DNA of 29,313 nt from PVC group bacterium. GTDB lineage: Bacteria > Auribacterota > Erginobacteria > Erginobacterales > Erginobacteraceae. Position numbers and translations under genes: made by a program. The notes beneath the pieces were generated by a model. It had not been told where the DNA came from, ran no database searches, and saw only the letters and a list, made by a program, of their open reading frames with translations. This document shows positions 3,040 through 29,313 of the stretch, in pieces. The DNA is taken from the NCBI GenBank assembly GCA_043804695.1, contig JAZDIV010000012.1, positions 1 through 29,313 of the forward strand. The letters are read 5' to 3'. Numbering within the stretch: the stretch's first letter is position 1; each line of letters starts with the position of its first letter.

Positions 3040-3511
3040 CGCTTTTACCTCCCGATTTTTTCAACAGTTCGATGTCGGTTATCACCATTGTCTTGTCGAC
3101 GGGTTTCAGCATATCGTAGATCGTAAGCAGCGCCGCGGCGGTGCCGACCAGCGCCTCCATCTCGACGCCGGTCCGGTTCTCGGTTTTAACTGTTGTCGTC
3201 ACCGATATCGCGTTCGCTTCCATCCGGAAGCGGATGTCACAGTGAGTGATGTTTAGGCTGTGGCACATCGGGATCAGGAAGGGTGTCTGTTTGGCCGCCT
3301 GTATCCCCGCGATTTTGGAGACGGTGAAGATATCGCCCTTGGGGGTCTTTCCGGACCTGATCAGAGCGATCGTCTCTTCTTTGATCAGGATCTTCCCGGC
3401 TGCTTCCGCCGTCCGCGGGGTGAGTGTCTTCCCGGAGACGTCGATCATCCTCAGATTCCCGTCTTCAGACCAATGGGACGGCCTGGCCGGAATTCCTTGA
3501 TTTTGACTCAT
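3023..3511 (-). CDS. moaC: Cyclic pyranopterin monophosphate synthase MoaC
   Basis: MIDVSGK, LIPMCH, TGVEMEAL, TIYDMLK, KSGGKSG; GAGG upstream. Confidence 0.96.
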   Translation of the reverse strand: MSQNQGIPARPSHWSEDGNLRMIDVSGKTLTPRTAEAAGKILIKEETIALIRSGKTPKGDIFTVSKIAGIQAAKQTPFLIPMCHSLNITHCDIRFRMEANAISVTTTVKTENRTGVEMEALVGTAAALLTIYDMLKPVDKTMVITDIELLKKSGGKSGDWKK

Positions 3512-3539: not shown

Positions 3540-4193
3540 TTAATTCTCTTTAGCGCTGCTCCACGGCCAATCTTCTGGTTTGTTCGCAAGTCCGGCGTTC
3601 ACGGGATTCATATTAATATAGTTCTTCATGACCTCAAAATGCCGTTGATCGCGGATGAACCGATCCCAATACTCCCGTTGCCACACCCGGGAGTCATGCC
3701 GGAAGTGTTGCATCTGGGAGCGCCGCACCCCAGTGCGGCGGACATATTCATTAATGAACCGTGCCGTATAATTCTTCCAGGAGAGCACGATTTTCCCCAA
3801 AGGGCAACCATCCAGCGGTTCAATCAGTATATGGCAATGATTCGGCATAACCACCCACTCCAGGAGGCGGTAGCGTTCTCCGTCGAATCGCAGCCATGTA
3901 TCCACCACACACGCGGCAACTTCCGGTTCCCGCAAGACGCAGGAGCCATGACCATTGTCAAGATAGGCCTCGACCCGGCGCCGCAGTTCAGTTTTGAGTT
4001 CCTCATCATCCCCCCCCGTTGCCGCCGCTTTGGACTGCATTTGCTCCAGCACCGCCCGAGGTAGGGAATCGGCCAGGCGATAAGTGATGTGCTGGATAAG
4101 ATGGGGCGAATCAAAGTGGGGAAGGTATCCCCGCGAGTACCATCCTCGATGCTCTCTGAGGGCGTGTTCCGGAGATTTTTTCGCTTTGGTCAT
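3540..4193 (-). mobile_element. REP-associated tyrosine transposase (RAYT; IS200-like Y1 HUH family)
   Basis: RGYLPHFD, ITYRLADSLP, HUH motif VVMPNHCH, WQREYWDRFIRD, YINMNPV, WPWSS; REP-like hairpins upstream and inside. Confidence 0.9.
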
Positions 4194-4247: not shown

Positions 4248-4290
4248 GCCGCACTGGGGTGCGGCGCTCCCAGGTGCGGCGCTCCCAGGT
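4248..4290. repeat. REP-like hairpin upstream of the RAYT with a tandem 15-bp duplication
   Basis: GCCGCACTGGGGTGCGGCGCTCCCAG (4248-4273), exact reverse complement of 3714-3739; GTGCGGCGCTCCCAG at 4259-4273 and 4274-4288. Confidence 0.85.
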
Positions 4291-5222
4291 CAACCCCCAA
4301 TCTCCGCCATCGTCTCGAGATTTTTCTTGATCGCCGGCTCCAGCGACTTATGCTGAATAACCTCCGTCAGCCACCGTTTCACCGTCTCATCGTCCGGGTT
4401 TGCCCGCAGGATGTCCCTCAGGTTGAAGTCGCTTTTTTCGAAGACGCATAACTTCAGTTCGCCGTTGGCCTTGAGCCTGATCTTGCTGCAGGTGCCGCAG
4501 AAGTGGCGGGTAATCGGGGTGATAAACCCGACCCGTCCACCCTGCCCGGTCAATGAGTGATACTCGGAGACGGAGTTGTGGATCCGGTAGCCCTCCGGCT
4601 CTATGATTCCCTCCCGGATCAATTGCTCCCTGATCCCGGACAGGGAAGAGAACTCCGGTCCCCCGGAGGCGAAGTCCATCTTCTCGATGAATCTGACCGT
4701 GGCCCGGTGCTCACCGGCGAAACGGATGAAGTCAACGATCTCGTCCTCGTTGAAGTCCTTGATGACGACGACATTGATCTTCAGGTTGTCGACCCGGATC
4801 CGTTTCAGGTTCTCGAGAAAGACCGGCAATTCCCCCCACCGGGTGATGTGCCGGTATCGTTCGGGCCTGAGGGAGTCGCAGCTTACGTTGAGCCCGGCTA
4901 TTTTGAGCCGGTTGATCCGTTCCATCTCCAGGTCCGCGATCGCCAGGTTGGTGGTGATGTGGTAATCGCCTGCTGGCAGTCCCTCGAAGAAATCCAGTAC
5001 CCCCTTCCGGAGGAAGGGTTCCCCCCCGGTGAAGCGGAACTTGGTGATGTCCAGTTCCCGGCAGATACGCAGCACCCGCCGGATCTCCTCAAAACGTAAA
5101 ATATCCCGGTGCCGGAACTTTTTCACGCCCTCTCCCGGCATGCAGTACCGGCAGCGCAGGTTGCACCGGTCGGTCAGGGATATCCTCAGGTAATCGATGG
5201 TTCTGCCGTACGAATCTTTCAC
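4290..5222 (-). CDS. moaA: GTP 3',8-cyclase MoaA (radical SAM)
   Basis: DSYGRTIDYLRISLTDRCNLRCRYCMP, TGGEP, second cluster motif FCGTCSKIRL...KLC, C-terminal IGG. Confidence 0.96.
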   Translation of the reverse strand: MKDSYGRTIDYLRISLTDRCNLRCRYCMPGEGVKKFRHRDILRFEEIRRVLRICRELDITKFRFTGGEPFLRKGVLDFFEGLPAGDYHITTNLAIADLEMERINRLKIAGLNVSCDSLRPERYRHITRWGELPVFLENLKRIRVDNLKINVVVIKDFNEDEIVDFIRFAGEHRATVRFIEKMDFASGGPEFSSLSGIREQLIREGIIEPEGYRIHNSVSEYHSLTGQGGRVGFITPITRHFCGTCSKIRLKANGELKLCVFEKSDFNLRDILRANPDDETVKRWLTEVIQHKSLEPAIKKNLETMAEIGG

Positions 5223-18020: not shown

Positions 18021-18054
18021 TTGACAAGCCTTAGTTATGAGCATATGCTCATAA
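18021..18054 (+). promoter_or_regulatory. Sigma70-type promoter with a perfect 20-bp palindromic operator candidate
   Basis: A-rich UP-like tract, TTGACA (18021-18026), 17 bp, TATGCT (18044-18049); TTATGAGCATATGCTCATAA at 18035-18054. Confidence 0.8.
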
Positions 18055-18077
18055 TAAGTAATAAAAATGGAGAAAGT

Positions 18078-18461
18078 ATGCCCAGACCCCTGAAAAGACG
18101 TTGGATCGGCTCCTGGCCCGGGGCGGAGTACTTCAAGCCGCGGGGGATTCCGCTGGCCGATCTGGAAGTCGTCAGCCTCACCGTGGACGAATATGAGGCG
18201 ATCAGGCTTCACGACCGCGAGAGAATGGAGCAGGCTCCGGCGGCGGAAATGATGAGAATCTCCCGGGCCACTTTCGGGAGAATACTCAATTCGGCTCATC
18301 AAAAAATAGCGGAAGCCCTCACCTCCGGAAAAGCCATTCGGATCGGGGGAGGGAGCTTTGAGGTTCTTCCCGGGTGTGGTGCCGGCCCCGGTTTCTGCGG
18401 GAGAGGAAGGGGAAGAAGGTGGAGAGGAGGGGGCGGTAATCCATGTTCAAGGAAGGTATGA
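18078..18461 (+). CDS. DUF134 family HTH protein (putative regulator)
   Basis: MPRPLKRRWI, YFKPRGIP, LTVDEYEAIRLHD, AAEMMRISRATFGRILNSAHQKIAEAL; GGAG before ATG 18078. Confidence 0.9.
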   Translation: MPRPLKRRWIGSWPGAEYFKPRGIPLADLEVVSLTVDEYEAIRLHDRERMEQAPAAEMMRISRATFGRILNSAHQKIAEALTSGKAIRIGGGSFEVLPGCGAGPGFCGRGRGRRWRGGGGNPCSRKV

Positions 18462-18580
18462 TTGATCGAAAAATTTCTTGCCGCGACTGAAAGATCGGCA
18501 GCATGGGTTTCAAAACTAAAAATTTTTCGCTTCGCCCCGATGAAATCGGGGAAGAAAAAATTTTAAAAAGGAGGTGTGTC

Positions 18581-18961
18581 ATGCCAGGATTTGATGGAAC
18601 AGGTCCTATGGGTATAGGATCCCGGACCGGCGGCGGCTTCGGTTTCTGCCCGCCCGGTGCCGTCCCGGTCCCTGATCGCGGCGCCTACCCGTATTTCGGG
18701 GTGGGGCGCGGAGGATATCCCCGGGGCGGCGGAAGAGGCCGCGCCTGGGGCGGCGGCCGCGGCTGGTCGTGGAGGGCATACGCCCGCCCGCCGTATCCCG
18801 CGTCCGGGGCGCCTTACCCGCCGGCTCCCTATTACGATCCGTCTTCCGGTGAAGAACTCGATTTTCTCCGCGACCAGGCGAAGGGTCTCCAGGAGGACCT
18901 GGATTCGATTCGGGACCGCATCGGGGAACTGGAGAAGGAGCCCAAGCCGGCTCAGGAGTAA
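18581..18961 (+). CDS. DUF5320 family protein
   Basis: MPGFDGTGPMG.GSRTGGGFGFC, Gly/Arg-rich middle, C-terminal coiled coil; AGGAGGT before the ATG. Confidence 0.85.
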   Translation: MPGFDGTGPMGIGSRTGGGFGFCPPGAVPVPDRGAYPYFGVGRGGYPRGGGRGRAWGGGRGWSWRAYARPPYPASGAPYPPAPYYDPSSGEELDFLRDQAKGLQEDLDSIRDRIGELEKEPKPAQE

Positions 18962-19169
18962 AGCCTACGCCCCCCGGTTTTCCTTTTGCGGGGATTGACC
19001 CGGAAGGTTTAGGGTTAGTCCCCGTGGGGGAAAAAATAATTTAAAAAGTACTGAATATTCCCGGGAGAAAATTCCGAATTAACTGAAACTGCCGATTGGT
19101 ATAAAGAATATCGAGTAGTCTTCAAAATAAAATTTTTCGCAGAAAAATTTTAAGGAGGAAAATTTTAAA

Positions 19170-19544
19170 ATGAAAGTAGTCGTTTCTTCCACCGGCCCCG
19201 ATCTCTCTTCGGCGACCGATCCGAGGTTCGGAAGATGTTCTTATTTTGTTTTGGTGGATAGCGATTCCATGGAAACGAAATCCTATCCCAATGAGTCGCA
19301 AACGGCCATGGGCGGCGCCGGCATTCAGGCCGGGCAATTCGTCTCCTCGCTCGGCGCGGAAGCGGTGATCACCGGCAATGTCGGTCCCAATGCCGCGCGA
19401 GTTCTGGGTGCCTCCGGTATGAAAATTTATACCGGGGCGGCCGGAACGGCCGAAAAGGCCGTGAATGATTTCAAGGCCGGGAAACTGAAGGAGGTCTCCT
19501 CGGCCACGGTCGGTCCCCCCTTCGGGATGGGGGGCGGGCGGTGA
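19170..19544 (+). CDS. NifB/NifX family (MTH1175/ORP-like) cofactor-binding protein
   Basis: DPRFGRCSYFVLVD, GGAGIQAGQ, VITGNVGPNA. Confidence 0.92.
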   Translation: MKVVVSSTGPDLSSATDPRFGRCSYFVLVDSDSMETKSYPNESQTAMGGAGIQAGQFVSSLGAEAVITGNVGPNAARVLGASGMKIYTGAAGTAEKAVNDFKAGKLKEVSSATVGPPFGMGGGR

Positions 19545-20374
19545 TACTGGCTGTCGCCGGGGGCAAAGGCGGGATCGGCAAAACGTTGATCGCCACCAGT
19601 CTCGCTCTCTCCAACGCTCCCGTTCAATTTCTGGATTGTGATGTTGAAGAACCCAATGCCCACCTTTTTCTTGAAGCCAAAGTTAAAAAGGTGGAACGGG
19701 TTTCGATCACGGTTCCGCATTTCAGGAAATGGAAGGGGGAGGCATGCTATCAGGGAGCCGAATTCTGCCGCTATCAGGCCCTGGCGGTGGTTAAAGATAC
19801 GATGCTGGTTTTCCCCGAGCTCTGCGTTTCCTGCGGGGGATGTTTTCTCCTCTGCCCCGAGGGGGTCCTCGATCCGGTGGATCATCAGGTGGGAGATGTT
19901 AAAACAAGTAAGGGGCGGAACGGCATCGAATTCATATCCGGCGAATTAAAAATCGGCTCCCAGCGGACGACCGAAGTGATCCGGGCGGTCAAAAACCGCC
20001 TGGATGCGGGGGGAAACGCGGTCGTGGACTGCCCGCCGGGCAGCGGCCGTCCGGTGCTGGAATCCCTTCGAGGAAGCGACTTCTGCCTGCTGGTGACCGA
20101 ACCGACGCCCTTTGGCCTCCACGATGTGAAAGGTAATAAAAGATTGCTCGATATTTTAAATATTCCCGGCGGCGTCGTCATCAACCGCGCCGGCGGGGGA
20201 TATGACGGTATCCGGCGCTGGTGTGAGGAGGAAGGTGTCCCGGTTCTGGAGGAGATTCCTTTCGATCTTGAACTGGCCCGCGCTGCCGCCCGGGGCCGGA
20301 CCCTCCCGGACATCGACCCCTCCTGGGCGCGGCGATTCCAGGACCTCTGGGCGGCAATAAAAAGAAAGATTTGA
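19541..20374 (+). CDS. MinD/ParA-superfamily P-loop ATPase with ferredoxin insert
   Basis: GGKGGIGKT, DCDVEEPNAHLF, CVSCGGCFLLCP, DCPPG, LVTEPTPFGLHD. Confidence 0.92.
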   Translation: MILAVAGGKGGIGKTLIATSLALSNAPVQFLDCDVEEPNAHLFLEAKVKKVERVSITVPHFRKWKGEACYQGAEFCRYQALAVVKDTMLVFPELCVSCGGCFLLCPEGVLDPVDHQVGDVKTSKGRNGIEFISGELKIGSQRTTEVIRAVKNRLDAGGNAVVDCPPGSGRPVLESLRGSDFCLLVTEPTPFGLHDVKGNKRLLDILNIPGGVVINRAGGGYDGIRRWCEEEGVPVLEEIPFDLELARAAARGRTLPDIDPSWARRFQDLWAAIKRKI

Positions 20375-20424
20375 TGGGAATAATGGAATGCCTGAATAGT
20401 GGAATAATGTTTTGACCGATATTT

Positions 20425-21303
20425 ATGAAACAACTGGTCATCATCAGCGGTAAGGGAGGAACGGGCAAAACCAGTATCGCCGCCTGTTTCGCTGCCCTGG
20501 AAAAGAAAAGGGGGGCGTTTGCTCCGGTGATCGTCGATTGCGATGTTGATGCTCCCAACCTCCATCTGCTCCTGAAGGGAAAGGTGATCAATTTTGCTCC
20601 TTTTTCCGGACCCGAGCGTGCCGTCATCAACCGCGCCCGCGTCTCCGATCCGGACAAATGCGAAAATTCCTGTGCTTTCAAAGCTATTTCCGGTTTCGAA
20701 GTCGATCCGTTTTCCTGTGTCGGATGCGGAGTCTGTCGCCTGGTGTGCGGGGAGGACGCGGTTCAAATGGCGGAGAGAGAAGCGGGGACCATCTTCGAGA
20801 GCGATACCCCCTACGGAAAATTTTTTCACGCGGAACTTCTTCCCGGCCAGCCCGGTTTCGGCGGACTGGTCACGGCTTTGAGAGTGAAGGGCGAAGCAGA
20901 GGCGCTGCGGCGGACCGATTCGCTTCTCCTGATCGACGGCTCGCCCGGAGTGGGATGCCAGGTCATCGCCAGCCTGACCGGCTGCGACCTCGCCTTGGTG
21001 GTTACCGAACCCGGGAAAGGGGCCTTTCACGATCTCGATCGAATTCACCAGTTGCTCCGCTTCTTCGGCATGAAGGCCCTGGTCATGATCAATCGTTATA
21101 ATCTCGACCGGACTCTCATGAAGGAGATCGAGCGGTACTGCCTGAACCATGATCTGGAAATCGCGGGAAGAATTCCTGTTAACGATCTCTTCCGGCAAGC
21201 GGTTCTGGCCGGAAAACCGGCGGTGGAAATGGGGGACGAAAAACTCAACCCCTGGATCGAAGAAGCATACCGGAACACGAGGCAGGCCCTTTATGGTGTG
21301 TGA
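20425..21303 (+). CDS. Second MinD/ParA-superfamily P-loop ATPase with ferredoxin insert
   Basis: [48 protein letters not shown]. Confidence 0.92.
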
Positions 21304-22195
21304 ATTGAAAAAAGACATCAAGGACAGTTTTGAGCTTCATCGCCGCCAGGGTGAAGATCAGGATCAGTACGAACAACGCCTCCGGATGAAGGAGAACCTC
21401 ACCCGGATCAAGCACAAACTGATGGTGATCAGCGGGAAGGGCGGCGTGGGGAAGACGACGGTGGCGGTTAACCTGGCGGCTGGTTTGGCCCGGGACGGAT
21501 TTGCCGTCGGTTTGCTCGATGCCGACATTCACGGCCCCAATGTCGCCCTCATGCTGGGGAGCGAGGGAAAAAAAATCGAGGGGGGGCGGATCGGAAAGGT
21601 TCGTCCCATCCCGATCCGTCCCGGCCTGGTGGCGATGAGCATGGCCTTCCTCCTCGATCATCCGGGGCAGGCGGTCATCTGGCGCGGCCCCCTCAAGATG
21701 GCGGTGATCAAACAGTTCCTGAGCGATTTCCAATGGGGGGACCTTGATTACCTGGTGGTGGACCTCCCCCCGGGCACGGGCGATGAGCCGCTCAGCATCG
21801 CCCAGCTCATCCCCGAGATGGAGGGGGCGATCATCGTGACCACCCCCCAGGAAGTCGCCCTCCTCGACGCCCGCAAGTGCGTGGATTTCACCCGGCAGCT
21901 CAAGATCCCGGTCCTGGGGCTGGTGGAAAACATGAGCGGCTTTTCCTGCCCGCACTGCGGTAAAGAGATCGATATCTTCAAGAAAGGGGGCGGGGAAAAG
22001 GCCGCGCGGGAACTGGGAGTCCCGTTTCTGGGGCGAATCCCGCTCGATCCCCGTATTGTCGTCAGCAGTGACGAGGGAAAGCCGTTTCTGGATCAGCACC
22101 CCGATTCCGAAGCCGCCCGGAGCCTGAATGCCATCATTAAGAGCATCGTCGGGCGGACGGAAGAAAAACAGAATAACTCAGATCGGTGTTCATAA
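21293..22195 (+). CDS. Mrp/NBP35 (ApbC) Fe-S carrier ATPase
   Basis: [54 protein letters not shown]. Start uncertain; ATG 21293 chosen. Confidence 0.95.
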
Positions 22196-22220
22196 ATAAA
22201 ATTTTACGGAGGAAAATTTT

Positions 22221-22619
22221 ATGAAAATTGCCATTTCTACCGACAGCGGCCAGGTTTCCGCTCACTTCGGGCGCTGCCCCGAGTTCACGGTGGTCGGGAT
22301 CGAGGACGGAAAAGTGATTTCACAAGAGGTGATCGCCAATCCCGGCCATCATCCCGGTTTCCTGCCCAAGTTCTTATCTGAGCGCGGTATCGGAGCCATC
22401 GTCGCCGGGGGGATGGGGCTCCGGGCTCAAGCTCTCTTTGATGAAATGGGGATGAAGGCGGTCATGGGAATCTCGGGTCCGCTTGACGAGGTCGTCGGGA
22501 AGCTCGCGTCCGGGACCTTGCAGGGGGGGGAGTCGCTCTGCCTCCCGGGAGCGGGAAAGGGCTACGGTCTGGACAAAACCGAATGCGACCATCCGGATGA
22601 AAGTGAAACCGCCGATTAA
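22221..22619 (+). CDS. Second NifB/NifX family cofactor-binding protein
   Basis: MKIAIST, VSAHFGRCPEF, NPGHHPGFLP, GGMG.RA. Confidence 0.92.
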   Translation: MKIAISTDSGQVSAHFGRCPEFTVVGIEDGKVISQEVIANPGHHPGFLPKFLSERGIGAIVAGGMGLRAQALFDEMGMKAVMGISGPLDEVVGKLASGTLQGGESLCLPGAGKGYGLDKTECDHPDESETAD

Positions 22620-22727
22620 GCTGATGATGCGGATTATTTTTTATCAGATTTTTAATTTTCCAGAGGAAAATTAAAAATAATAACTGGGCATATCTAAATA
22701 GAATTCCTGAATAGGTTGGTGAGATTG

Positions 22728-23183
22728 ATGAATGAGGAAAAAGACATTGAAATAGTGGCGCAAGAAATCCAGGAAGCGATCCTGAAAGAGGCCCGGAAGA
22801 TCTATTCCCCTAAAGTCATTGAGTTATCTCAATATCCCGGGAATCTGGGTGTGATTGAGAAGGCCAACGGGTTCGGGATTATCAAAGGGATCTGCGGGGA
22901 TACGATGAAGATTTATCTCCGGATCGTCCGCGGCCGGGTCAAAGAGGCGAAATTCGAGACCGACGGCTGCGGCCCGACGCTGGCCTGCGGGAGCGCGATT
23001 ACCGGGATGGCAAGGGGAAAGACTCTAAAGCAAGTGCTGAAACTATCACCGTCCGACGTGCTGAAAGAGCTCGGAGGTTTGCCCGAATCCCATCTTCATT
23101 GTTCGATCCTCGCCGTTAACGCACTCCACAGCGCCGTCGCCAACTATCTGTTTTTAAATCAGGATCAGCCGAAACCGGAATAA
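22728..23183 (+). CDS. NifU/IscU-like Fe-S scaffold protein
   Basis: YSPKVIEL, GICGDTMKIYL, FETDGCGPTLACGS, LGGLPESHLHCSILA; three conserved cysteines present. Confidence 0.9.
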   Translation: MNEEKDIEIVAQEIQEAILKEARKIYSPKVIELSQYPGNLGVIEKANGFGIIKGICGDTMKIYLRIVRGRVKEAKFETDGCGPTLACGSAITGMARGKTLKQVLKLSPSDVLKELGGLPESHLHCSILAVNALHSAVANYLFLNQDQPKPE

Positions 23184-23224
23184 GCGTAATCAGTTTCCAG
23201 TCCATTGAATAGGTATCACAAACA

Positions 23225-23293
23225 GGAGTAATGGAGTAGTGGAGTGATGGGGAATCAGTCAATATTCCGATATTCCATTATTCCAACATTCCA
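23225..23293. repeat. Imperfect hairpin built from 8-bp tandem repeats
   Basis: GGAGTAAT GGAGTAGT GGAGTGAT opposite CAATATTC CGATATTC CATTATTC CAACATTC; related octamers at about 20377-20409. Confidence 0.65.
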
Positions 23294-23305
23294 AGGAGGT
23301 TGAAG

Positions 23306-23545
23306 ATGCCATCAGGAGATGGAACAGGACCGAGGGGCCAGGGCCCCGGGACGGGAAGAGGAATGGGAGGAAGAGGCATGGGGGGAGGCGGGGGAAGAGG
23401 CAGGATGGGCGGAAACCGCCCCGGCTCCGGACCGGCAGGAGAATGCGTCTGCCCGGGTTGCGGAGCCCGGGTGACGCATCAGGTCGGCGTTCCCTGCTAT
23501 GAGGTTAAATGCCCCAAGTGCGGCGCGGCCATGGCGCGAGCCTGA
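23306..23545 (+). CDS. Small DUF5320-like Gly/Arg-rich protein with C-terminal Cys-rich metal-binding domain
   Basis: MPSGDGTGPRGQGPGTGRGMG; CVCPGCG...PCYEVKCPKCG; AGGAGGT before ATG 23306. Confidence 0.85.
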   Translation: MPSGDGTGPRGQGPGTGRGMGGRGMGGGGGRGRMGGNRPGSGPAGECVCPGCGARVTHQVGVPCYEVKCPKCGAAMARA

Positions 23546-23561
23546 GCAGCGGGATCTTTAG

Positions 23562-24203
23562 GTGCGACCAGTGAAGAATGGCAACCCATTCCGCAGGTTC
23601 GCGTCCGATTACGATTACTGGTATGAGCCCAACCGGGCCGCCTATCTATCCGAGCTGGAAGCGATAAAACGGGTATTCCATCCGTCCTTCCGCGGCCTCG
23701 AAGTCGGTGTCGGGACCGCGCGCTTTGCCGCCCCGCTCAAAGTGAAGTGGGGAATGGATCCGGCCCGGGAAATGCTTGAACTCGCCCGGGCGCGGGGTGT
23801 GAGCGTGGTTCAAGGTCACGGCGAGTCACTCCCCTTCGCGGCCGGGGTTTGTGACTGCGTCTTGCTGATTTTCACTCTCTGTTTCGTCCCTGCTCCGGAG
23901 AGATTAATCGATGAGGCGCGAAGAGTCCTCGGAAAAGGCGGCTCTGTGATTGTGGGGATTATCGATAAAGAAAGTTTTTTAGGCGAAATCTATGAAACTC
24001 GAAAGAGCCAAAGCAAGTTTTACGGTTCGGCCCGATTTTTTTCCGTGCCGGAAGTTTTAAATCTTCTTCCGGAAAATAGATGGAGAGATATAGAAATATT
24101 CCAAACCATTTTCAATTCGCCGGAGGAGATAGCAGAGGTTCAAATTCCCAAAAATGGATATGGAGAAGGGGGGTTTGTCGTAATAAGGGCCACAAAATCC
24201 TGA
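23562..24203 (+). CDS. Class I SAM-dependent methyltransferase
   Basis: LEVGVGTARFA, GMDPAREML, GHGESLPF, TLCFV, EARRVL..GG. Confidence 0.9.
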   Translation: MRPVKNGNPFRRFASDYDYWYEPNRAAYLSELEAIKRVFHPSFRGLEVGVGTARFAAPLKVKWGMDPAREMLELARARGVSVVQGHGESLPFAAGVCDCVLLIFTLCFVPAPERLIDEARRVLGKGGSVIVGIIDKESFLGEIYETRKSQSKFYGSARFFSVPEVLNLLPENRWRDIEIFQTIFNSPEEIAEVQIPKNGYGEGGFVVIRATKS

Positions 24204-24244
24204 ATTATGTTCAAACTAAAATTTTTCCGAAGGAAAAATTTTAA

Positions 24245-25000
24245 ATGAAACTCCTAAAAGAAATATTGACGACCTTGCCGGAGGGACATTCGACACAAGA
24301 GATATACATCGGCGCTTTTGATACGGTGGTGAAGAGCCTGAGATGGGGCATATCCTCCACCTTCCGTGATCCCGTTGGCGAAAATAAATCGGCCTGGATA
24401 AAAGGAGCGGGGGAACTCATCGGCCGTCCGGCGCTCGATCTCGCCCGGTACGTTCTTTCCGATAATCTGCTCGAGGCTTCCCTGGGGATGGCGGCGATCA
24501 ACTCGCTTCTCCATACGGAAGGAATCGCTTTCCATGAGATCAACGCCGCCCGGATTGTACGGGAACACGGGAAAGGGAAAAATGTCGCGGTCGTCGGCGA
24601 CTTTCCATTTCTGGAAAAGATCCGGAGCGAGGTGAACAATCTGTGGGTCATAAGCAGGAGACCCTGGGAGGGGGAGGAGGGGGTGAAGGAAGCCCGGTCA
24701 ATTCTTCCCCGGGCCGATGTCGTCGCTCTCACCGGCAGCTCGTTCATCAATCATACCGCCGAAGTCCTCCTTTCCCTGTGCCCCCGGGCCTATACGTTGA
24801 TTCTGGGTCCCTCAACGCCGCTTTCCCCGGTGCTGTTTCGTTACGGGGCGGACGCTATCTGCGGCACGCTGATCGACGATCCGGACCGGGCTCTGCCCTT
24901 TATCCGGCAGGGCGCTTCCTTCCGTCACATTCAGGGGCTTCGTCTGGTAACGATGTTTAAAGATGGGGTCCCCGATGACAACGATATGCGCTCTGGTTGA
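24245..25000 (+). CDS. DUF364 family (Rossmann-like, putative heavy-metal chelation) protein
   Basis: LEASLGMAAINS, KNVAVVGDFP, ADVVALTGSSFINHT, LGPSTPLSPVLF.YGAD. Confidence 0.88.
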   Translation: MKLLKEILTTLPEGHSTQEIYIGAFDTVVKSLRWGISSTFRDPVGENKSAWIKGAGELIGRPALDLARYVLSDNLLEASLGMAAINSLLHTEGIAFHEINAARIVREHGKGKNVAVVGDFPFLEKIRSEVNNLWVISRRPWEGEEGVKEARSILPRADVVALTGSSFINHTAEVLLSLCPRAYTLILGPSTPLSPVLFRYGADAICGTLIDDPDRALPFIRQGASFRHIQGLRLVTMFKDGVPDDNDMRSG

Positions 25001-25273
25001 AGAACGAACCCTGTCCTCCGGCTTGAAAACGGAGCACGGCCTTTCCCTGCTGCTGGAGGCCGGGGGTAAAAGCTGGCTTTTCGATGCCGGCCGGAGCGAC
25101 GCGGTCGTGCTGAACAGCCGCAAGCTGGGATTTGACCTGACCGTGATCGAAGGGATTATCCTCACGGTCACTATGACCACACCGGAGGATTGCGGGAGGT
25201 ATTGAAGGTGGCCGGACCGAAAAAGCCGATCCCTTGTCACGTAAACAGGACGTTTCCAGTGCTTCCGAAATAA
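24975..25273 (+). pseudogene. Frameshifted, truncated MBL-fold metallo-hydrolase
   Basis: EHGLSLLLE, LFDAG in one frame; HGHYDHTGGL continues in another frame from 25163 and stops at 25273. Confidence 0.85.
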
Positions 25274-25312
25274 TATATTAGCTCGCTTTGCTCGCAACTT
25301 TTGCCACTAAGA

Positions 25313-25341
25313 CACCCCCGTAGCGAAGCTGTACGGGGGTG
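25313..25341. terminator. Hairpin between convergent operons
   Basis: CACCCCCGTA-GCGAAGCTG-TACGGGGGTG, 10-bp stem. Confidence 0.55.
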
Positions 25342-25360
25342 GCTAATAATTATTGAAATT

Positions 25361-26353
25361 CTATTTGCCCGGGAAGATATGGAGGCCGGCGGGGGCGGCG
25401 CCGCCCGTACGGTCGGCCAGGAAGATGTTCCCGATCTGGCTCAGGCACTCCCGGGCGAATTCCAGGTAGAGGCGTTTTCTGGTGATCTCGGGGACCTTTC
25501 CGTACTCAAAGACCAGCTTCAGGAACCGCTCGGACTCGCCTTTTGCCGCCTGGACTGTTTTATCCCGATAGGCCGCGGCCTCCTTTTTCTTCCGGTCGCC
25601 TTCCGCCCGCGCCCGGGCGATCTCTTCGTTGGCGTATGACTCCGCCCGGCTTTCCATCTTCTTTTTGTCGATCTGGGCGTTGATGACATCGTCAAAATAA
25701 GACTGGACGACGGAAGGCGGACGGATGTCCTTGATGTCAACCCGGTCGATGGTGATCCCGCAGTTGTTCTGGTCGAGTTTCTTCTGGGCGCGGATCTGGA
25801 TCTGCTCCTTGATCTCGTCCTTCCCGCTGGTGAGAATGAGGTCGACCGGCCGCACCGCCAGAAGATGGATGGTCTCCCGGCAGATGATATCCCGCAGGAG
25901 CATTTGCTTCTGATTCGCCCCGAAGACGTAATCGAACGGGTCGGAGAACTTGTACTGGACGATGACGCTGATATCCACCGCGTTGTTGTCTCCGGAGAGG
26001 GAATAGGACTCAAGGCCGGTCAACGCATAAAAAATGTCGGCCCGGGAGTTTTCCCGGGAGTCCTGATAAAAGTCATCCACCACTAAACTCTCCGATTTTC
26101 TCACCGGCACTTTATACACCCGGCTGAAGGGAGGAGGGAGGGTGTAGTGCAGCCCGGGAAGCACGCGCTTGTCAGCCACCCGCCCCAGCACCTCCAGGAC
26201 GCCCAGTTCGTCGGTCCTGATGGTGTAGAATCCGAGGCTGAGGTAGAACAGGCACACCGCCAGCCCGATCCACCTCACGAAACGCCTGGCATGACGGACG
26301 GCGTTCTGCAGCTCGCTCCCCACGGTCCCGGTTTTTTCAGCGTTCTCGTTCAT
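25361..26353 (-). CDS. hflK: HflK-like SPFH-domain membrane protein
   Basis: One TM helix, PGLHYTLPPPF, LSGDNNAVDI, DIRPPSVVQSYFDDVINA, AKGESERF, PEITRKRLYLE. Confidence 0.88.
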   Translation of the reverse strand: MNENAEKTGTVGSELQNAVRHARRFVRWIGLAVCLFYLSLGFYTIRTDELGVLEVLGRVADKRVLPGLHYTLPPPFSRVYKVPVRKSESLVVDDFYQDSRENSRADIFYALTGLESYSLSGDNNAVDISVIVQYKFSDPFDYVFGANQKQMLLRDIICRETIHLLAVRPVDLILTSGKDEIKEQIQIRAQKKLDQNNCGITIDRVDIKDIRPPSVVQSYFDDVINAQIDKKKMESRAESYANEEIARARAEGDRKKKEAAAYRDKTVQAAKGESERFLKLVFEYGKVPEITRKRLYLEFARECLSQIGNIFLADRTGGAAPAGLHIFPGK

Positions 26354-26372
26354 GACGGCCCGGCGGGTTTGC

Positions 26373-27272
26373 CTACTGTCCGCTCCCTTCTTCGGGCGAC
26401 TTTTTCGGCAGAAGAAACCGGAAAAGATCGGAGTCGAGGGAAAGGATCAGAGTGGTTTCCCGCCCCAGAATCTTGCGGTAGGTGTCAAGCGAATCCAAGA
26501 ATTCAAAGAGATCGGGGGCTTGGCTGTAAGCCTCTCCCCGGATCCTGATCGCCTCTTTGTCGCCTTCCCCTTTGGCGATCTCGGCGTCCCGGCTTGCTTC
26601 CGCCAGAATCCGGGAGACCTGCATGTCGGCCTCCGCCTCGATCTTGGCCGCCGCCTCGCCTCCTTCCGCCCGGTATTTCTTGGCTTCCTTTTCCCGGTCC
26701 GACTTCATCCGATTGTAAACGGATTCGGTGACGATGGCGGGATAGGTAATCCGGCGGATCCCGAGATCGACCACGGTCAGTCCGTACTGTTCCCGGGCCT
26801 GTTCATTACACTCCCGGAGGATTCGTTCCTCGATCTCGGTCAGCCTGACTTTTTGCGGATCGGAGTTGATAATCTGGGAGAGGGTGTAATCTCCCAGAAC
26901 GTTCCCCAGCCGGGCATTGACCATGTCTCCCAGTTTGTCCTCGGCGATGGCAGCGGTCCCCAGCGACTGGAAGAAAACCAGCGGGTCGCTGATCTGCCAG
27001 CAGACGTAGCAGGTCATGATGATCGGGTTCTGGTCTTCCAGCATCAGCTGGATCGGCCGCGATTTAAAGACCTGGATGCGCTTGTCCAGGCGGTTGACTT
27101 TCGCCAGGAAGCCGGGGAGCTTCCGGTGCGGCCCGGGTTCCCGGACAATCCGGACCGGGTCGCCGAACCGGGTGACGATGACGGTCTCTTTCTCATTTAC
27201 GGTAAATATGCTCAGGGCGGCCAGGATGGCCAGGATGCCCAGGGCGATGAGGAGCAGTGTGATCTTTTTCAT
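26373..27272 (-). CDS. hflC: HflC-like SPFH-domain membrane protein
   Basis: IFTVNEKETVIVTRFGDP, WQISDP, VYNRMKSDR, AKKYRAEG, GEGDKEA, FEFLDSLDTYR, DSDLFRFL. Confidence 0.9.
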   Translation of the reverse strand: MKKITLLLIALGILAILAALSIFTVNEKETVIVTRFGDPVRIVREPGPHRKLPGFLAKVNRLDKRIQVFKSRPIQLMLEDQNPIIMTCYVCWQISDPLVFFQSLGTAAIAEDKLGDMVNARLGNVLGDYTLSQIINSDPQKVRLTEIEERILRECNEQAREQYGLTVVDLGIRRITYPAIVTESVYNRMKSDREKEAKKYRAEGGEAAAKIEAEADMQVSRILAEASRDAEIAKGEGDKEAIRIRGEAYSQAPDLFEFLDSLDTYRKILGRETTLILSLDSDLFRFLLPKKSPEEGSGQ

Positions 27273-27365
27273 GGTGTCCTCTTTTAAACTGCGAATGACG
27301 CGAATGTAATCTTGTACGTTTAGCTCGATCTTACTCGAAATCCCTTTCGAGCAGGGTATAGTTCA

Positions 27366-29108
27366 TTAGAACTGGCTGTCCAGAAATACCGGCTTGCCGT
27401 TTTTCAGCCAGATGTCCGGCGTCCCGACCGCGGGATCAACCAGCACGATCTGTTTGCCGGCCAGCGCCTCCTTGACCGCTTCCCGGTGAAGCATGGGTTT
27501 CGCAATCGAGGCATAGTCCTGGATCGCCGCCGCCCGGTCCGTGAACCGGCTGGCCTCCCCGGCGGCATTCTCTTTTTTATCCATGACGTATGATTTCGCC
27601 AGCATCGCGGTCTTGACCGCCCAGCCCCTGGCTTCCGGGATCGAGCTGTTCCGGTAACCGAGCGCCTGGTTAATCTTCTCCTCCTTCTCCTGCATGGCCG
27701 CGATGACCTGCTCATAGGAGTCGGCCACGGAGACGGGGGGATGGATGTCAATGATATTCACGGCGACGATCTCCAGTCCCGTCTTCAATCCGTCCAGTTT
27801 CTCCTGGACCTGCTCCTTGATCCGCCGCTCCATCGGCGACCGGTAAGCGGTTGCGATCTCGGTGAAGACATTCCCGGAAAAGATCTCCGTGATCAGACGG
27901 TCGGTCGCGTTATTGAGCAGCTCCTCCGGCATCCGAAAGCTGTAGGCATAGTCGAAGATGTTTTTGATCCGGTAATGAATGACCAGGTACGGATAGAAGA
28001 AATAATTCTCGGCCGAGAGGAAGGCTTCGTCCGTCCCGTGTTCCTTTGTCCAGAGCAGGGCGACAGCCCGGGGATCGGCGGTGTTTCCGATCGTCATTCT
28101 CCGGATTGAACGGGAATCGACGATGATGATCTTTTCCCCGGGCCAGGGAAGTTTCAGGTGAAGGCCGGGACCCAGCGGCGCTCCCCGGTTGATGACCTTG
28201 CCCAGCCGTTCCCGGATCCCCTCCGCCGCGGGGCCGATCACAACCAGAGAGTTGAGGAGGAGGAGGATCAGGACGCCCAGGCCGGCAACGAAAAGAGAGA
28301 GCCGGCGGAAACGGCCCCGGGCCTCCGCCGGGAGCTGATCCCAGTTGATGGCCTGGCCGACCCCTCTCCTGATCCGGTTCCAGGTCCGGGTATCCAGAGC
28401 GGCTGCCAGCATCCCGACCGCGACCCGGTCTTGCCACCCCGCCCGGCCGTGGAGAGACCACCAGAAATTGACGAACGTCTCCAGCGAGAAGGAGACGACG
28501 AAAACGATGACGATCACCGCTCCGATTTTGTCGATGTTGATCCCCAGCTGATCGATGCCCAGCTGGAGGGCGATCATGGTGCCCCCCGCGATCAGGGAAC
28601 CGACCATGTCGGCCTTGGAGTGAAGTCCGTCGGCGATCAACCCCGGCGAGTTCTCCCTCTTGCCGATCCGGATCTCGAAGATAGACACGATCAGAGAGCA
28701 AAAGGCGAAGAGGAGAAAAACCAGCCCGTAGATGAAGGGGGAGGCGATATTCGGGGCGGGGGCATAGAAAACCTTGTGGATCACCCCTCCGGCCGCCGCC
28801 AGGATGACGCAGCCGATAATGAGCGAGATCCATTTCTCCCGGGTCAGATTTTTCCAGGCCGCGCCCTTTCCCCGGAGAGGGGGCCCGTCAACCGTTTCCG
28901 GTTTTTCGGGGGGGATGAAGCGGGGATGCCGGGCCCCGGGGGAGACCGAAAAATAAACCAGAAGCGAGGTACCCACATCGGTCAGGCTGTGCCAGGCCTC
29001 CGCCAGGATCACCAGACTGCCGCTCATTGAAGCGAGGATGAATTTAAAAACCGTGAGCAGGAGGTTTAAGAGAGTGGAGACGGCGGCGGTTTTTTGCTTC
29101 ACATTCAT
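27366..29108 (-). CDS. Fusion of a cation diffusion facilitator (CDF) transmembrane domain and an HflK-like SPFH domain
   Basis: N-half SGSLVILAEAWHSLTD, SPGLIADGLHSKAD, IDKIGAVIV; C-half PGLHLKLPWP, IDIHPPVSVADSYEQVIAA, IPEARG, AAGEASRF; one continuous 580-aa ORF. Confidence 0.85.
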   Translation of the reverse strand: MNVKQKTAAVSTLLNLLLTVFKFILASMSGSLVILAEAWHSLTDVGTSLLVYFSVSPGARHPRFIPPEKPETVDGPPLRGKGAAWKNLTREKWISLIIGCVILAAAGGVIHKVFYAPAPNIASPFIYGLVFLLFAFCSLIVSIFEIRIGKRENSPGLIADGLHSKADMVGSLIAGGTMIALQLGIDQLGINIDKIGAVIVIVFVVSFSLETFVNFWWSLHGRAGWQDRVAVGMLAAALDTRTWNRIRRGVGQAINWDQLPAEARGRFRRLSLFVAGLGVLILLLLNSLVVIGPAAEGIRERLGKVINRGAPLGPGLHLKLPWPGEKIIIVDSRSIRRMTIGNTADPRAVALLWTKEHGTDEAFLSAENYFFYPYLVIHYRIKNIFDYAYSFRMPEELLNNATDRLITEIFSGNVFTEIATAYRSPMERRIKEQVQEKLDGLKTGLEIVAVNIIDIHPPVSVADSYEQVIAAMQEKEEKINQALGYRNSSIPEARGWAVKTAMLAKSYVMDKKENAAGEASRFTDRAAAIQDYASIAKPMLHREAVKEALAGKQIVLVDPAVGTPDIWLKNGKPVFLDSQF

Positions 29109-29109
29109 A

Positions 29110-29136
29110 TAAATTAGCGCCTCCGGCGCTAATTTA
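29110..29136. repeat. Family C hairpin immediately upstream of the CDF-HflK start codon
   Basis: TAAATTAGCGCC-TCC-GGCGCTAATTTA, perfect 12-bp stem; GGAGG on the minus strand. Confidence 0.85.
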
Positions 29137-29255
29137 GAAGAATTGGAGTGAATTGTACCTTTTCAACGTGTAGCAGACCGATGATTATCCAAGAATTAGT
29201 TTGAATGCAACTGCTCAATAAACAACGGTAAGCCTTTAGCGTAACAAAACTAAAC

Positions 29256-29313
29256 AAAATATTTTTCCCTGGTTGCTTTTTCGCCTGTTTCGGAATTTCC
29301 ATAATCGGATTTT
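29256..29313. repeat. Partial copy (cut by the window end) of the palindromic element at 13334-13416
   Basis: TCGCCTGTTTCGGAATTTCCATAATCGGATTTT aligns without gaps to the reverse complement of 13359-13391, TCGACTGTTTCGGGAGTTCAATAATCGGATTTT. Confidence 0.65.

What the first reader, a model, noticed from the sequence alone, without database searches (positions are those of the whole stretch)
25361..29108. CDF metal-transporter domain fused to HflK, in an operon with its own HflC and a second HflK
Seen: one 580-aa ORF joins a CDF membrane domain with intact HxxxD motifs in both metal-site helices (HSLTD, HSKAD) to an extra TM helix and an SPFH/coiled-coil HflK domain. The usual cytoplasmic CDF C-terminal domain is absent; hflC and hflK follow, and no ftsH or hflX is in the window. 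Established: E. coli HflK/HflC form a large cage around FtsH, and an HD-HD site is typical of Zn-type CDFs. Inference: a three-subunit SPFH cage covalently carrying a metal transporter or sensor, either a metal-export microdomain or a metal-responsive control on the Zn-dependent FtsH. I recall unfused hflK-hflC-hflK clusters beside metal transporters in other bacteria, so the association may be known while the fusion is uncharacterised.
Basis: partly seen in the sequence, partly recalled or inferred. Interest (0 to 1): 0.78.

Follow-up and report, generated by a model that had tools for sequence, protein, structure and literature searches.

The report
Metal exporter fused to HflK cage subunit
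One gene joins a metal-export membrane domain to a subunit of the bacterial HflK/HflC membrane cage, always followed by the two other cage genes, which points to an undescribed way of building a metal exporter into a membrane scaffold.

Summary
Window 27366-29108 (-) is one 580-aa ORF: a six-helix CDF membrane domain, no cytoplasmic CDF tail, a 7th helix, then an HflK-type SPFH/coiled-coil module. hflC (26373-27272) and a conventional hflK (25361-26353) follow.

It is not a misassembly. 118 of the 120 best relatives carry both domains. All 105 full-length 50%-identity representatives carry both halves. 64 species-level genomes hold the fusion, and all 59 contigs that reach far enough have the same three-gene order. 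The four transport-site residues are near-invariant.

New here: HflK-type modules are also fused to P1B heavy-metal ATPases (80 of 83 hits) and to SO_0444 Cu/Zn exporters. The fused modules share a Trp/His signature that the partner HflK and E. coli HflK lack.

Best reading: a heteromeric HflK/HflC-type cage with a built-in metal exporter. The metal is unresolved, Fe(II) or Zn(II) class. A link to FtsH is untested; ftsH is nearby in 1 of 65 loci. Ten literature searches found no description. Everything is inferred from sequence, and every genome is a MAG.

The parts
27366..29108 (-). K1: 580-aa CDF-HflK fusion protein (whole ORF with stop)
   Evidence: One ORF. Pfam Cation_efflux plus Band_7. 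118 of the 120 best relatives have the same two domains.
28449..29108 (-). CDF membrane domain, residues 1-220, six helices
   Evidence: Pfam and NCBIfam CDF hits. The profile matches FieF 2qfi/3h90 over residues 5-231. Model helices are 3-29, 32-55, 90-115, 124-151, 155-182 and 192-219.
28977..28991 (-). HSLTD, residues 40-44: transport-site half in helix 2
   Evidence: Aligns to FieF D45/D49. H40 is kept in 103 of 106 and D44 in 105 of 106 full-length representatives.
28608..28622 (-). HSKAD, residues 163-167: transport-site half in helix 5
   Evidence: Aligns to FieF H153/D157. H163 is kept in 105 of 106 and D167 in 106 of 106.
28329..28448 (-). Arg-rich cytoplasmic linker, residues 221-260, in place of the CDF C-terminal domain
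   Evidence: No ZT_dimer hit. The model shows two short helices and low to medium pLDDT.
28248..28328 (-). Seventh transmembrane helix, residues 261-287, equivalent to the HflK membrane anchor
   Evidence: Model helix 261-287. Aligns to the E. coli HflK anchor, residues 80 onward.
27369..28247 (-). HflK-type SPFH and coiled-coil module, residues 288-580
   Evidence: TIGR01933 gives 122.7 bits over 289-558. PDB HflK gives E 3.6e-44. It lies in the HflK clade, SH-aLRT 99.
27975..28088 (-). Signature loop, residues 341-378 (G341, N342, W353, H357, H378), specific to transporter-fused HflK modules
   Evidence: W353 is kept in 60 of 60 K1 and 72 of 72 P-ATPase fusions. H357 is kept in 59 of 60 and 72 of 72. 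The partner K2 has Phe and a gap at these two positions, and E. coli HflK has gaps at both. The model is low-confidence here.
27735..27749 (-). DIHPP, residues 454-458, at the junction of SPFH and coiled coil
   Evidence: H456 is kept in 60 of 60 K1, 72 of 72 P-ATPase fusions and 2 of 2 SO_0444 fusions. K2 has Arg or Lys and E. coli HflK has Arg.
26373..27272 (-). HflC-type subunit, 299 aa
   Evidence: TIGR01932 gives 186.6 bits, above the 134.4 cut-off. Sister to E. coli HflC, SH-aLRT 99. Follows the fusion in all 59 loci with room.
25361..26353 (-). K2: conventional HflK-type subunit, 330 aa
   Evidence: TIGR01933 gives 180.5 bits, above the 159.4 cut-off. Lies in the HflK clade. It is the third gene in all 59 loci with room.
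29113..29133 (-). Inverted repeat ATTAGCGCC-GGA-GGCGCTAAT that holds the GGAGG ribosome-binding site, 5 nt upstream of the start codon
   Evidence: Read directly. The arms are conserved by sequence in L001, L002, L005 and L006 but not in L004, L041 or other phyla. Its function is unknown.

Best explanation
The three genes encode one heteromeric HflK/HflC-type SPFH assembly in the inner membrane. HflC pairs with two HflK-type subunits, the conventional K2 and the fusion K1.

K1 replaces the short cytoplasmic N-terminus of HflK with a complete six-helix CDF domain. That domain keeps the His-Asp/His-Asp transport site. It therefore most likely still moves a divalent transition metal, of the Fe(II)/Zn(II) class, from cytoplasm to periplasm in exchange for protons.

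The CDF's usual cytoplasmic dimerising and sensing tail is gone. I infer that oligomerisation through the SPFH/coiled-coil wall takes over its scaffolding role and fixes several exporters in the ring of the cage. The periplasmic module of K1 carries conserved Trp and His residues that other transporter-fused HflK modules share. I infer that these residues bind or sense the metal on the periplasmic side.

Shown: the architecture, the conservation, the gene order and the recurrence of such fusions. Inferred: co-assembly, transport, the direction of transport, the role of the histidines and the identity of the metal.
For: - Both halves are real and match solved structures: HflK 7vhp E 3.6e-44, FieF 2qfi E 4.7e-7 by profile, and by fold.
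- Topology fits. CDFs end in the cytoplasm (established knowledge). One extra helix then puts the SPFH module in the periplasm, as in E. coli HflK, whose anchor aligns to helix 7.
- The transport site is under selection. Both HxxxD motifs occur in 119 of the 120 best relatives; the exception is an N-truncated fragment. H40 is kept in 103, D44 in 105, D160 in 105, H163 in 105 and D167 in 106 of 106 full-length 50%-identity representatives.
- The module is fixed. The order fusion-hflC-hflK2 on one strand holds in 59 of 64 loci, and the other 5 are cut by contig ends (57 of 57 with at least 2100 nt of room). The submitters' labels name about ten phyla.
- No other neighbour gene family occurs in more than 12 of the 65 loci.
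- K1, C and K2 are each one clade (SH-aLRT 99). K1 and K2 lie with E. coli HflK, and C lies with E. coli HflC.
- Three unrelated metal-exporter folds carry an HflK module at the same end. These are CDF, P1B ATPase (80 of 83 hits; CPC motif in 72 of 72 full-length) and SO_0444 Cu/Zn exporter (P0267: 406 bits against a 300 cut-off, plus hflK at 214 against 159).
- A signature is shared by the fused modules only: W353, H357, D454 and H456.
- An unfused parallel exists in print: the Zur-bound PA2439-PA2435 locus of P. aeruginosa (passages read).
Against: - Nothing here is experimental, and all 64 genomes are MAGs.
- Binding of K1 to C and K2 is inferred from gene order and family membership only.
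- K1 misses the curated cut-offs of TIGR01297 CDF (57.6 < 82.35) and TIGR01933 HflK (122.7 < 159.4). It is therefore a divergent member of both families.
- The signature loop (342-371) and residues 455-469 are modelled with pLDDT below 50. No geometry for a histidine site can be claimed.
- Trees do not place K1 with the other fused modules. The AU test only fails to reject that grouping (p 0.252), and I chose the group after seeing a tree.
- The metal is ambiguous. An HD-HD site is usually read as Zn-type (recalled). The profile hits point to the FieF/MamB type. Iron-related neighbours occur in only about a third of loci, and not in the window's closest relatives L001-L006 and L041.
- In P. 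aeruginosa the unfused SPFH triad is induced with an importer under zinc starvation. That fits an export role poorly.
Confidence: 0.5

Rival explanations
1. Metal-sensing regulator of FtsH. The CDF domain binds metal but acts mainly as a sensor. Its conformational state changes the opening of the HflK/HflC cage and so the access of FtsH to membrane substrates.
For: K2 and C pass the equivalog cut-offs for the FtsH modulators HflK and HflC. E. coli HflK/C is solved around FtsH (PDB titles 7wi3 and 9cz2). The loss of the cytoplasmic CDF tail removes the usual sensing domain, so sensing would have to come from the transport site.
Against: The complete site-A set plus D160 is conserved, as in working transporters. 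Full P1B ATPases with a CPC motif and full SO_0444 exporters carry the same module, and three different pumps kept whole argues for transport. ftsH is near the module in 1 of 65 loci; E. coli hflKC is not next to ftsH either, so this point is weak.
Confidence: 0.2
2. Built-in turnover adaptor. The HflK module holds the exporter beside caged FtsH, so the pump can be degraded quickly when the metal becomes scarce. The fusion is a means of regulated proteolysis of exporters.
For: The recurrence across three exporter classes fits a generic control device. The P. aeruginosa SPFH triad responds to zinc supply. FtsH degrades membrane proteins and is held by HflK/C (established knowledge; PDB titles).
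Against: Degrading K1 would also consume a structural cage subunit. The conserved periplasmic Trp/His signature has no obvious role in cytoplasmic proteolysis. No FtsH data are available.
Confidence: 0.12
3. K1 works apart from C and K2. It forms its own homo-oligomeric SPFH ring, as stomatin or QmcA do. The downstream hflC-hflK2 pair is simply the organism's housekeeping HflK/C kept in the same operon.
For: K2 and C look canonical. K1 is a separate, more divergent clade. Homo-oligomeric SPFH cages are solved (stomatin 9oh9, QmcA 8z5g).
Against: The three-gene order is kept in all 59 loci with room, across many phyla, while every other neighbour varies. K1 lies inside the HflK clade, whose known member assembles only with HflC.
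Confidence: 0.12
4. Artefact. The long ORF comes from a frameshift, a lost stop codon or a chimeric assembly joining a CDF gene to an hflK gene.
For: None found. The window is a single contig of unknown quality.
Against: 64 of 65 loci, window included, hold both halves in one ORF, and the exception is cut by a contig end. 118 of the 120 best relatives, from five data sources, carry both domains at 36-73% identity. All 105 full-length representatives carry both halves.
Confidence: 0.01

Closest known systems
E. coli HflK/HflC cage around FtsH (PDB 7vhp, 7wi3, 9cz1/9cz2)
   Same: K1's C-half and K2 lie in the HflK clade, and C lies in the HflC clade. Each has a membrane anchor followed by SPFH and coiled coil. 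K and C genes are adjacent, as in E. coli.
   Different: There are two HflK-type subunits instead of one. One of them carries a six-helix metal transporter in place of the cytoplasmic N-terminus. K1 has an inserted loop and histidines that E. coli HflK lacks. No hflX lies beside it. A link to FtsH is unknown.
FieF/YiiP and other CDF exporters (PDB 2qfi, 3h90, 8f6k; ZnT family)
   Same: The six-helix fold is the same. Site A sits in helices 2 and 5 at the aligned positions.
   Different: The helix-2 pair is His-Asp, against Asp-Asp in FieF. The cytoplasmic C-terminal domain is absent. The score is below the TIGR01297 cut-off. The domain is fused to an SPFH module.
P. aeruginosa PA2439-PA2435 locus (HflK-family, HflC, HflC-family, hypothetical, P-type ATPase HmtA)
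   Same: Three SPFH genes sit with a heavy-metal transporter in one metal-regulated locus. Zur binds the PA2439 promoter, and the locus is induced by zinc depletion (passages read).
   Different: The genes are unfused. The transporter is a P-type ATPase described as an importer. I could not fetch these sequences, so homology to K1, C and K2 and the presence of the Trp/His signature stay unchecked.
P1B-ATPase-HflK and SO_0444-HflK fusion proteins (unnamed database families, e.g. P0270, P0267)
   Same: A metal exporter at the N-terminus is joined to an HflK-clade module at the C-terminus. All three fusion types keep H456; W353, H357 and D454 are kept by K1 and the P-ATPase fusions but not by the two SO_0444 fusions.
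   Different: The transporter folds differ. Their SPFH modules group with each other and near E. coli HflK rather than with K1. Their gene neighbourhoods were not seen.
Stomatin with bound channels (e.g. PDB 9zd2, aquaporin 1 bound to human stomatin)
   Same: An SPFH oligomer is physically associated with a membrane transport protein (title).
   Different: The association is non-covalent, eukaryotic and homo-oligomeric, and has no link to metals.

Membership tests
Cation diffusion facilitator (CDF; Pfam PF01545, TIGR01297) | Six-helix Cation_efflux membrane domain | tested here: met
   Pfam gives 49.4 bits against a 26.6 cut-off, in two stretches. The fold matches YiiP 8f6k_B, E 1.6e-5. The model has six helices.
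Cation diffusion facilitator (CDF; Pfam PF01545, TIGR01297) | Score above NCBIfam's CDF superfamily cut-off | tested here: not met
   TIGR01297 gives 57.6 bits against a cut-off of 82.35. No equivalog (MamB, Cdf31, MamM, FieF, MntE, ZitB) comes near its cut-off.
Cation diffusion facilitator (CDF; Pfam PF01545, TIGR01297) | Transport site A: two polar pairs, in helix 2 and helix 5 | tested here: met
   H40/D44 and H163/D167 align to FieF D45/D49 and H153/D157. They are kept in 103-106 of 106 representatives.
Cation diffusion facilitator (CDF; Pfam PF01545, TIGR01297) | Cytoplasmic C-terminal domain (ZT_dimer, PF16916) | tested here: not met
   No ZT_dimer hit. Only 48 residues lie between helices 6 and 7. 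The unfused relatives P0206, P0227 and P0259 do have it.
Cation diffusion facilitator (CDF; Pfam PF01545, TIGR01297) | Homodimeric transporter with metal/proton antiport | not testable with these tools
   Needs biochemistry; see Tried and rejected for the one computation tried.
HflK (TIGR01933), for the fusion's C-half (K1) | Score above the equivalog cut-off | tested here: not met
   122.7 bits against a cut-off of 159.4.
HflK (TIGR01933), for the fusion's C-half (K1) | Falls on the HflK side of the HflK/HflC split; anchor, SPFH and coiled-coil layout | tested here: met
   The clade of E. coli HflK, K1 and K2 has SH-aLRT 99, rooted on QmcA. The profile aligns to HflK residues 80-349. Only one canonical reference sequence was used.
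HflK (TIGR01933), for the third gene (K2) | Score above the equivalog cut-off | tested here: met
   180.5 bits against a cut-off of 159.4.
HflC (TIGR01932), for the second gene | Score above the equivalog cut-off; groups with E. coli HflC | tested here: met
   186.6 bits against a cut-off of 134.4. Sister to E. coli HflC, SH-aLRT 99.
HflK/HflC-FtsH holoenzyme | Alternating K/C cage that encloses and modulates FtsH | not testable with these tools
   No FtsH of this organism is in the window, and ftsH is near the module in 1 of 65 loci.

The most novel reading that the evidence does not exclude
Transporter-fused HflK modules define a distinct class of SPFH cage that works as a periplasmic metal-receiving chamber. 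Exporters of three unrelated folds (CDF, P1B ATPase, SO_0444) are built into the cage wall. They discharge metal onto a conserved Trp/His surface inside an enclosed periplasmic volume. The cell thereby sequesters, hands off or meters toxic metal instead of releasing it freely. This would be a protein-walled metal compartment in the bacterial envelope. The Zur-regulated hflK-hflC-hflK-hmtA locus of Pseudomonas would be its unfused form.
Probability: 0.12. Interest if true: 0.9.

Novelty: new variant of a known kind. Interest (0 to 1): 0.72.

Why it matters
- Bacterial SPFH cages are structurally well described, but FtsH remains almost their only known client. What else they organise is an open question.
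- Here a client is written into the gene: a metal exporter is covalently part of an HflK-type subunit. The same solution recurs with two other exporter classes.
- This gives a directly testable system with three genes, one of them carrying a clear transport site and a short list of conserved periplasmic histidines. It can address how an SPFH scaffold acts on a transporter.
- It offers a reading for the unexplained zinc-regulated SPFH triad beside HmtA in Pseudomonas aeruginosa.
- It flags several hundred database proteins, now labelled only 'HflK', 'SPFH domain' or 'cation transporter', as one functional theme.

Tried and rejected
- Complex prediction on two copies of the CDF domain (residues 1-225, alignment A1): no verdict, score 0.00 in both runs, controls not run. 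This says nothing for or against dimerisation.
- tblastn of K1's SPFH half against 72,556 plasmids: 56 records, all below 60% identity. The annotated ones are ordinary hflK; 9 of the 30 listed rows had no feature listed under the match and 2 records had no annotation. No useful unfused triad turned up.
- Rfam scan of the window and the four closest loci: no family, so no known metal riboswitch upstream. No tRNA genes.
- Promoter and terminator scan of 24900-29313: five terminator-like sites against 5.1 expected, and none between the three genes on the minus strand. Uninformative.
- Misassembly or frameshift: rejected.
- ftsH or hflX linkage: ftsH in 1 of 65 loci, hflX in 0 of 65.
- A conserved wider operon: apart from antisense shadow ORFs over the three genes, no gene family beyond them occurs in more than 12 of 65 loci.
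- K1 and K2 as sister duplicates: SH-aLRT 86 with E. coli HflK as the only reference. This was lost when the other fusions were added (support 21-27), so I do not claim it.
- Literature, ten searches: none describes a CDF-SPFH or P-type-ATPase-SPFH fusion. For most hits I saw only the listing.
- Not possible: fetching PA2437-PA2439, fetching the contigs of the P-ATPase and SO_0444 fusions, or scanning the complete chromosomes (OY762069.1, OY761554.1, OY760175.1) for a second hflKC or for ftsH.
- No model coordinates are returned, so distances between the conserved histidines could not be measured.

Full report
**What is in the window**

Three minus-strand ORFs fill 25361-29108. They are 580 aa (27366-29108), 299 aa (26373-27272) and 330 aa (25361-26353), separated by 93 and 19 nt.

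- The 580-aa protein passes Pfam's cut-offs for both Cation_efflux (49.4 bits) and Band_7 (66.9 bits). It has no ZT_dimer hit.
- NCBIfam places its C-half nearest HflK, at 122.7 bits against a cut-off of 159.4. Its N-half is nearest the CDF superfamily, at 57.6 bits against 82.35. Weak best matches go to MamB, Cdf31, MamM and FieF.
- The second and third genes pass the equivalog cut-offs for HflC (186.6 against 134.4) and HflK (180.5 against 159.4).
- A profile of 32 family members matches solved E. coli HflK (E 3.6e-44) from its membrane anchor to residue 349. It matches solved FieF/YiiP (E 4.7e-7) over the whole membrane domain.
- The AlphaFold2 model has mean pLDDT 73.5 and pTM 0.48. It shows six helices, a 48-residue linker, a seventh helix at 261-287, and then SPFH strands and long coiled-coil helices.
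- Foldseek finds HflK (7vhq_E, E 6.8e-13) and YiiP (8f6k_B, E 1.6e-5).
- HSLTD (residues 40-44) and HSKAD (163-167) align with FieF D45/D49 and H153/D157.

I call the fusion K1, the second gene C and the third K2.

**It is a real, conserved family**

- Of the 120 best relatives, 118 carry both Pfam domains at 36-73% identity and 554-638 aa. The other two are a 433-aa and a 356-aa fragment.
- An exhaustive search with the CDF half alone gave 487 representatives at E up to 0.001 and 136 at E up to 1e-10.
- Of the best 150 representatives, 105 are at least 500 aa, and all 105 carry both halves. Of the 45 shorter ones, 13 break off inside the SPFH half.
- In one genome per species (GTDB r232), 64 loci encode the fusion. 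All are MAGs. The submitters' labels are 15 Thermodesulfobacteriota, 14 Planctomycetota, 9 Pseudomonadota, 2 each of Auribacterota, Myxococcota and Acidobacteriota, 1 each of Hydrogenedentota, Spirochaetota, Eiseniibacteriota and Sumerlaeota, and 16 unassigned.
- The window's closest relatives are L001 (73% identity) and the Auribacterota genomes L003 and L005 (61% and 59%).
- Both halves lie in one ORF in 64 of 65 loci, window included. The exception is cut by its contig end.

**The three genes are one module**

- Fusion, hflC and hflK2 follow each other on one strand in 59 of 64 loci. The other five end 165-648 nt after the fusion or inside it. Of the loci with at least 2100 nt of room, 57 of 57 have the order.
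- Apart from antisense shadow ORFs over the three genes, no other gene family occurs in more than 12 of the 65 loci.
- ftsH lies within 8 kb in 1 of 65 loci (L032), and hflX in none.
- In a tree of 26 triads with E. coli HflK and HflC, rooted on QmcA, K1, C and K2 are each one clade (SH-aLRT 99). K1 and K2 sit with E. coli HflK (99), and C sits with E. coli HflC (99).

**The transporter half looks functional**

- Both HxxxD motifs occur in 119 of the 120 best relatives. The exception lacks its N-terminus.
- Among 106 full-length sequences (105 representatives plus the window), H40 is kept in 103, D44 in 105, D160 in 105, H163 in 105 and D167 in 106. Position 37 is Glu or Asp in 101.
- The Arg-rich linker after helix 6 is consistent with a cytoplasmic location. 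One more helix then places the SPFH module in the periplasm, as in HflK. Topology is inferred, not shown.

**Which metal?**

An HD-HD site is usually read as Zn-type (recalled, not tested). The remaining evidence points elsewhere or nowhere.

- The profile hits go to the FieF/MamB/MamM side, all far below their cut-offs.
- Recurrent neighbours are iron-related. A DtxR-family repressor occurs in 9 loci and FeoB in 6, with FeoA beside it in the two checked. A TonB receptor with a FecCD-type uptake system occurs in L033. Genes of a DUF134/DUF5320/NifX-like/MinD-ferredoxin/Mrp-NUBPL cluster occur in 9-10 loci, window included.
- In L009, L010, L042 and L045 that cluster is on the same strand as the triad and abuts or surrounds it.
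- Three of the nearest unfused CDF relatives (P0206, P0227, P0259) are CDF plus ZT_dimer plus a Nitro_FeMo-Co domain. That is an independent domain-fusion link to the NifX-like genes.
- Against a firm iron call: these neighbours are absent from about two thirds of loci, and from the window's closest relatives L001-L006 and L041. In those, lipopolysaccharide genes lie upstream instead.
- In the window the NifX-type cluster is convergent to the triad and separated from it by a broken gene.

I leave the metal as Fe(II)/Zn(II) class, unresolved.

**A wider pattern**

- A search for long proteins related to K2 returned six hits. One is an SO_0444-family Cu/Zn efflux permease fused to HflK (P0267: 406 bits against 300, and 214 against 159). 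Two are P1B heavy-metal ATPases fused to HflK (P0270 and P0271: TIGR01525 at 559 and 553 bits against 346). One is an HflK-HflC tandem, and two are CDF fusions.
- A search with the SPFH part of P0270 returned 83 proteins. Of these, 80 carry the P-type ATPase hydrolase domain plus Band_7, and 74 also carry E1-E2_ATPase. Labels include Verrucomicrobiae, Lentisphaeria, Bryobacteraceae and Thermoguttaceae. The rest are a second type of CDF fusion (P0337), a second SO_0444 fusion (P0349) and one Band_7-only protein.
- All 72 full-length ATPase fusions have the CPC motif.
- The ESM Atlas lists an 81-member cluster of about 991 aa with Hydrolase, E1-E2_ATPase and Band_7. It also lists a 111-member cluster of about 603 aa with Band_7 and Cation_efflux.
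- So exporters of three unrelated folds carry an HflK-clade module at the same end.

**A shared signature**

I aligned 60 K1, 60 K2, 72 ATPase fusions, two SO_0444 fusions, P0337 and E. coli HflK.

| Position | K1 | ATPase fusions | SO_0444 fusions | K2 | E. coli HflK |
|---|---|---|---|---|---|
| W353 | 60 of 60 | 72 of 72 | not kept | Phe | gap |
| H357 | 59 of 60 | 72 of 72 | not kept | gap | gap |
| D454 | 59 of 60 | 72 of 72 | 1 of 2 | Asp or Glu | Ala |
| H456 | 60 of 60 | 72 of 72 | 2 of 2 | Arg or Lys | Arg |
| H378 | 58 of 60 | 41 of 72 | Gln | Gln | Gln |

- Trees group the ATPase, SO_0444 and P0337 modules together (SH-aLRT 83-97) near E. coli HflK, and leave K1 apart with weak deep nodes.
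- An AU test does not reject K1, ATPase fusions and P0337 as one clade (p 0.252). I chose the group after seeing a tree, so this is permissive only.
- Whether the signature is shared ancestry or convergence is open. Either way it marks the transporter-coupled modules.
- The loop that holds W353 and H357 is modelled poorly (pLDDT below 50), so I claim no geometry.

**Mechanism**

The best-supported reading is a heteromeric HflK/HflC-type assembly in which K1 contributes a working divalent-metal exporter to the membrane ring.

- The SPFH wall would replace the lost CDF tail as the oligomerising scaffold.
- The periplasmic Trp/His residues would be a candidate site that receives or senses the metal.
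- The 12+12 alternating E. coli cage is recalled knowledge, supported here only by PDB titles.
- Co-assembly, transport, direction and the role of the histidines are all inferences.
- The rivals cannot be excluded with these tools: a metal sensor controlling FtsH, a device for FtsH-mediated turnover of exporters, and an independent K1 ring.

**Known or new?**

- Pipelines name these proteins 'SPFH domain-containing protein', 'protease modulator HflK family protein', 'cation diffusion facilitator family transporter' or 'Cu+-exporting ATPase'.
- Ten full-text searches found no description of a CDF-SPFH or P-type-ATPase-SPFH fusion.
- The nearest thing in print is the P. aeruginosa locus PA2439-PA2435. 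PA2437, PA2438 and PA2439 are annotated as HflC-family, HflC and HflK-family. They rise 9- to 14-fold under zinc depletion beside the P-type ATPase HmtA (table passage in PMC4542158). Their proteins rise in zinc-depleted cells (passages in PMC11761036). Zur shifts the PA2439 promoter (passage in bioRxiv 10.1101/2021.05.28.446167).
I could not fetch those sequences, so their homology to K1, C and K2 is unchecked.
- I rate the finding a new variant of a known kind: a known cage and known transporters in an undescribed covalent combination that recurs.

**Limits**

- Everything rests on sequence comparison.
- All genomes are MAGs, and their taxon labels are the submitters'.
- The pattern scan gives a lower bound on distribution.
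- The neighbourhoods of the ATPase and SO_0444 fusions were not seen.
- No genome was checked for a second hflKC pair.

Noticed in passing
window 29113-29133 (-): A perfect 9-bp inverted repeat with a 3-nt loop encloses the GGAGG ribosome-binding site just upstream of the fusion's start codon. The arm sequence ATTAGCG...GCTAAT is kept in L001, L002, L005 and L006 but not in L004, L041 or other phyla. It could be an operator or a hairpin that hides the ribosome-binding site.
   Followed up: partly
window 24957-25240 (+): Remnant of a metallo-beta-lactamase-fold gene lying in two reading frames (+3, then +2). It covers only residues 23-116 of the roughly 303-aa homologue in L010, including HGHYDHTGGL. 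It is a broken gene between the DUF364 gene and hflK2.
   Followed up: yes
window 18021-25000 (+): A gene cluster convergent to the triad: DUF134, DUF5320, two Nitro_FeMo-Co (NifX-like) genes, two MinD-ferredoxin genes, Mrp/NUBPL, NifU_N, an 81-aa Gly/Arg- and Cys-rich protein, a methyltransferase and DUF364. Parts of it lie beside the triad in 9 other loci, and on the same strand in L009, L010, L042 and L045.
   Followed up: partly
proteins P0206, P0227, P0259: The nearest full-length unfused CDF relatives carry Cation_efflux, ZT_dimer and a C-terminal Nitro_FeMo-Co domain. This architecture links this CDF clade to NifX-like proteins. P0225 is CDF plus rhodanese, and P0264 is CDF plus Band_7 plus YkuD.
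   Followed up: no
protein P0269: A 646-aa protein that is HflK and HflC fused in tandem on one chain.
   Followed up: no
window 3540-4193 (-): A 217-aa ORF with an IS200-like Y1 transposase domain sits between moaC (3023-3511) and a moaA-like radical-SAM gene (4290-5222).
   Followed up: no
L032 3735-5570 (-): This is the only locus of 65 with ftsH (56% identical to E. coli FtsH) within 8 kb. It lies about 2.4 kb upstream of the fusion on the opposite strand.
   Followed up: no
L066 (E. coli K-12 514401-517362): The E. coli SPFH pair qmcA-ybbJ lies between the copper regulator gene cueR and the iron exporter genes fetAB. Adjacency only.
   Followed up: no
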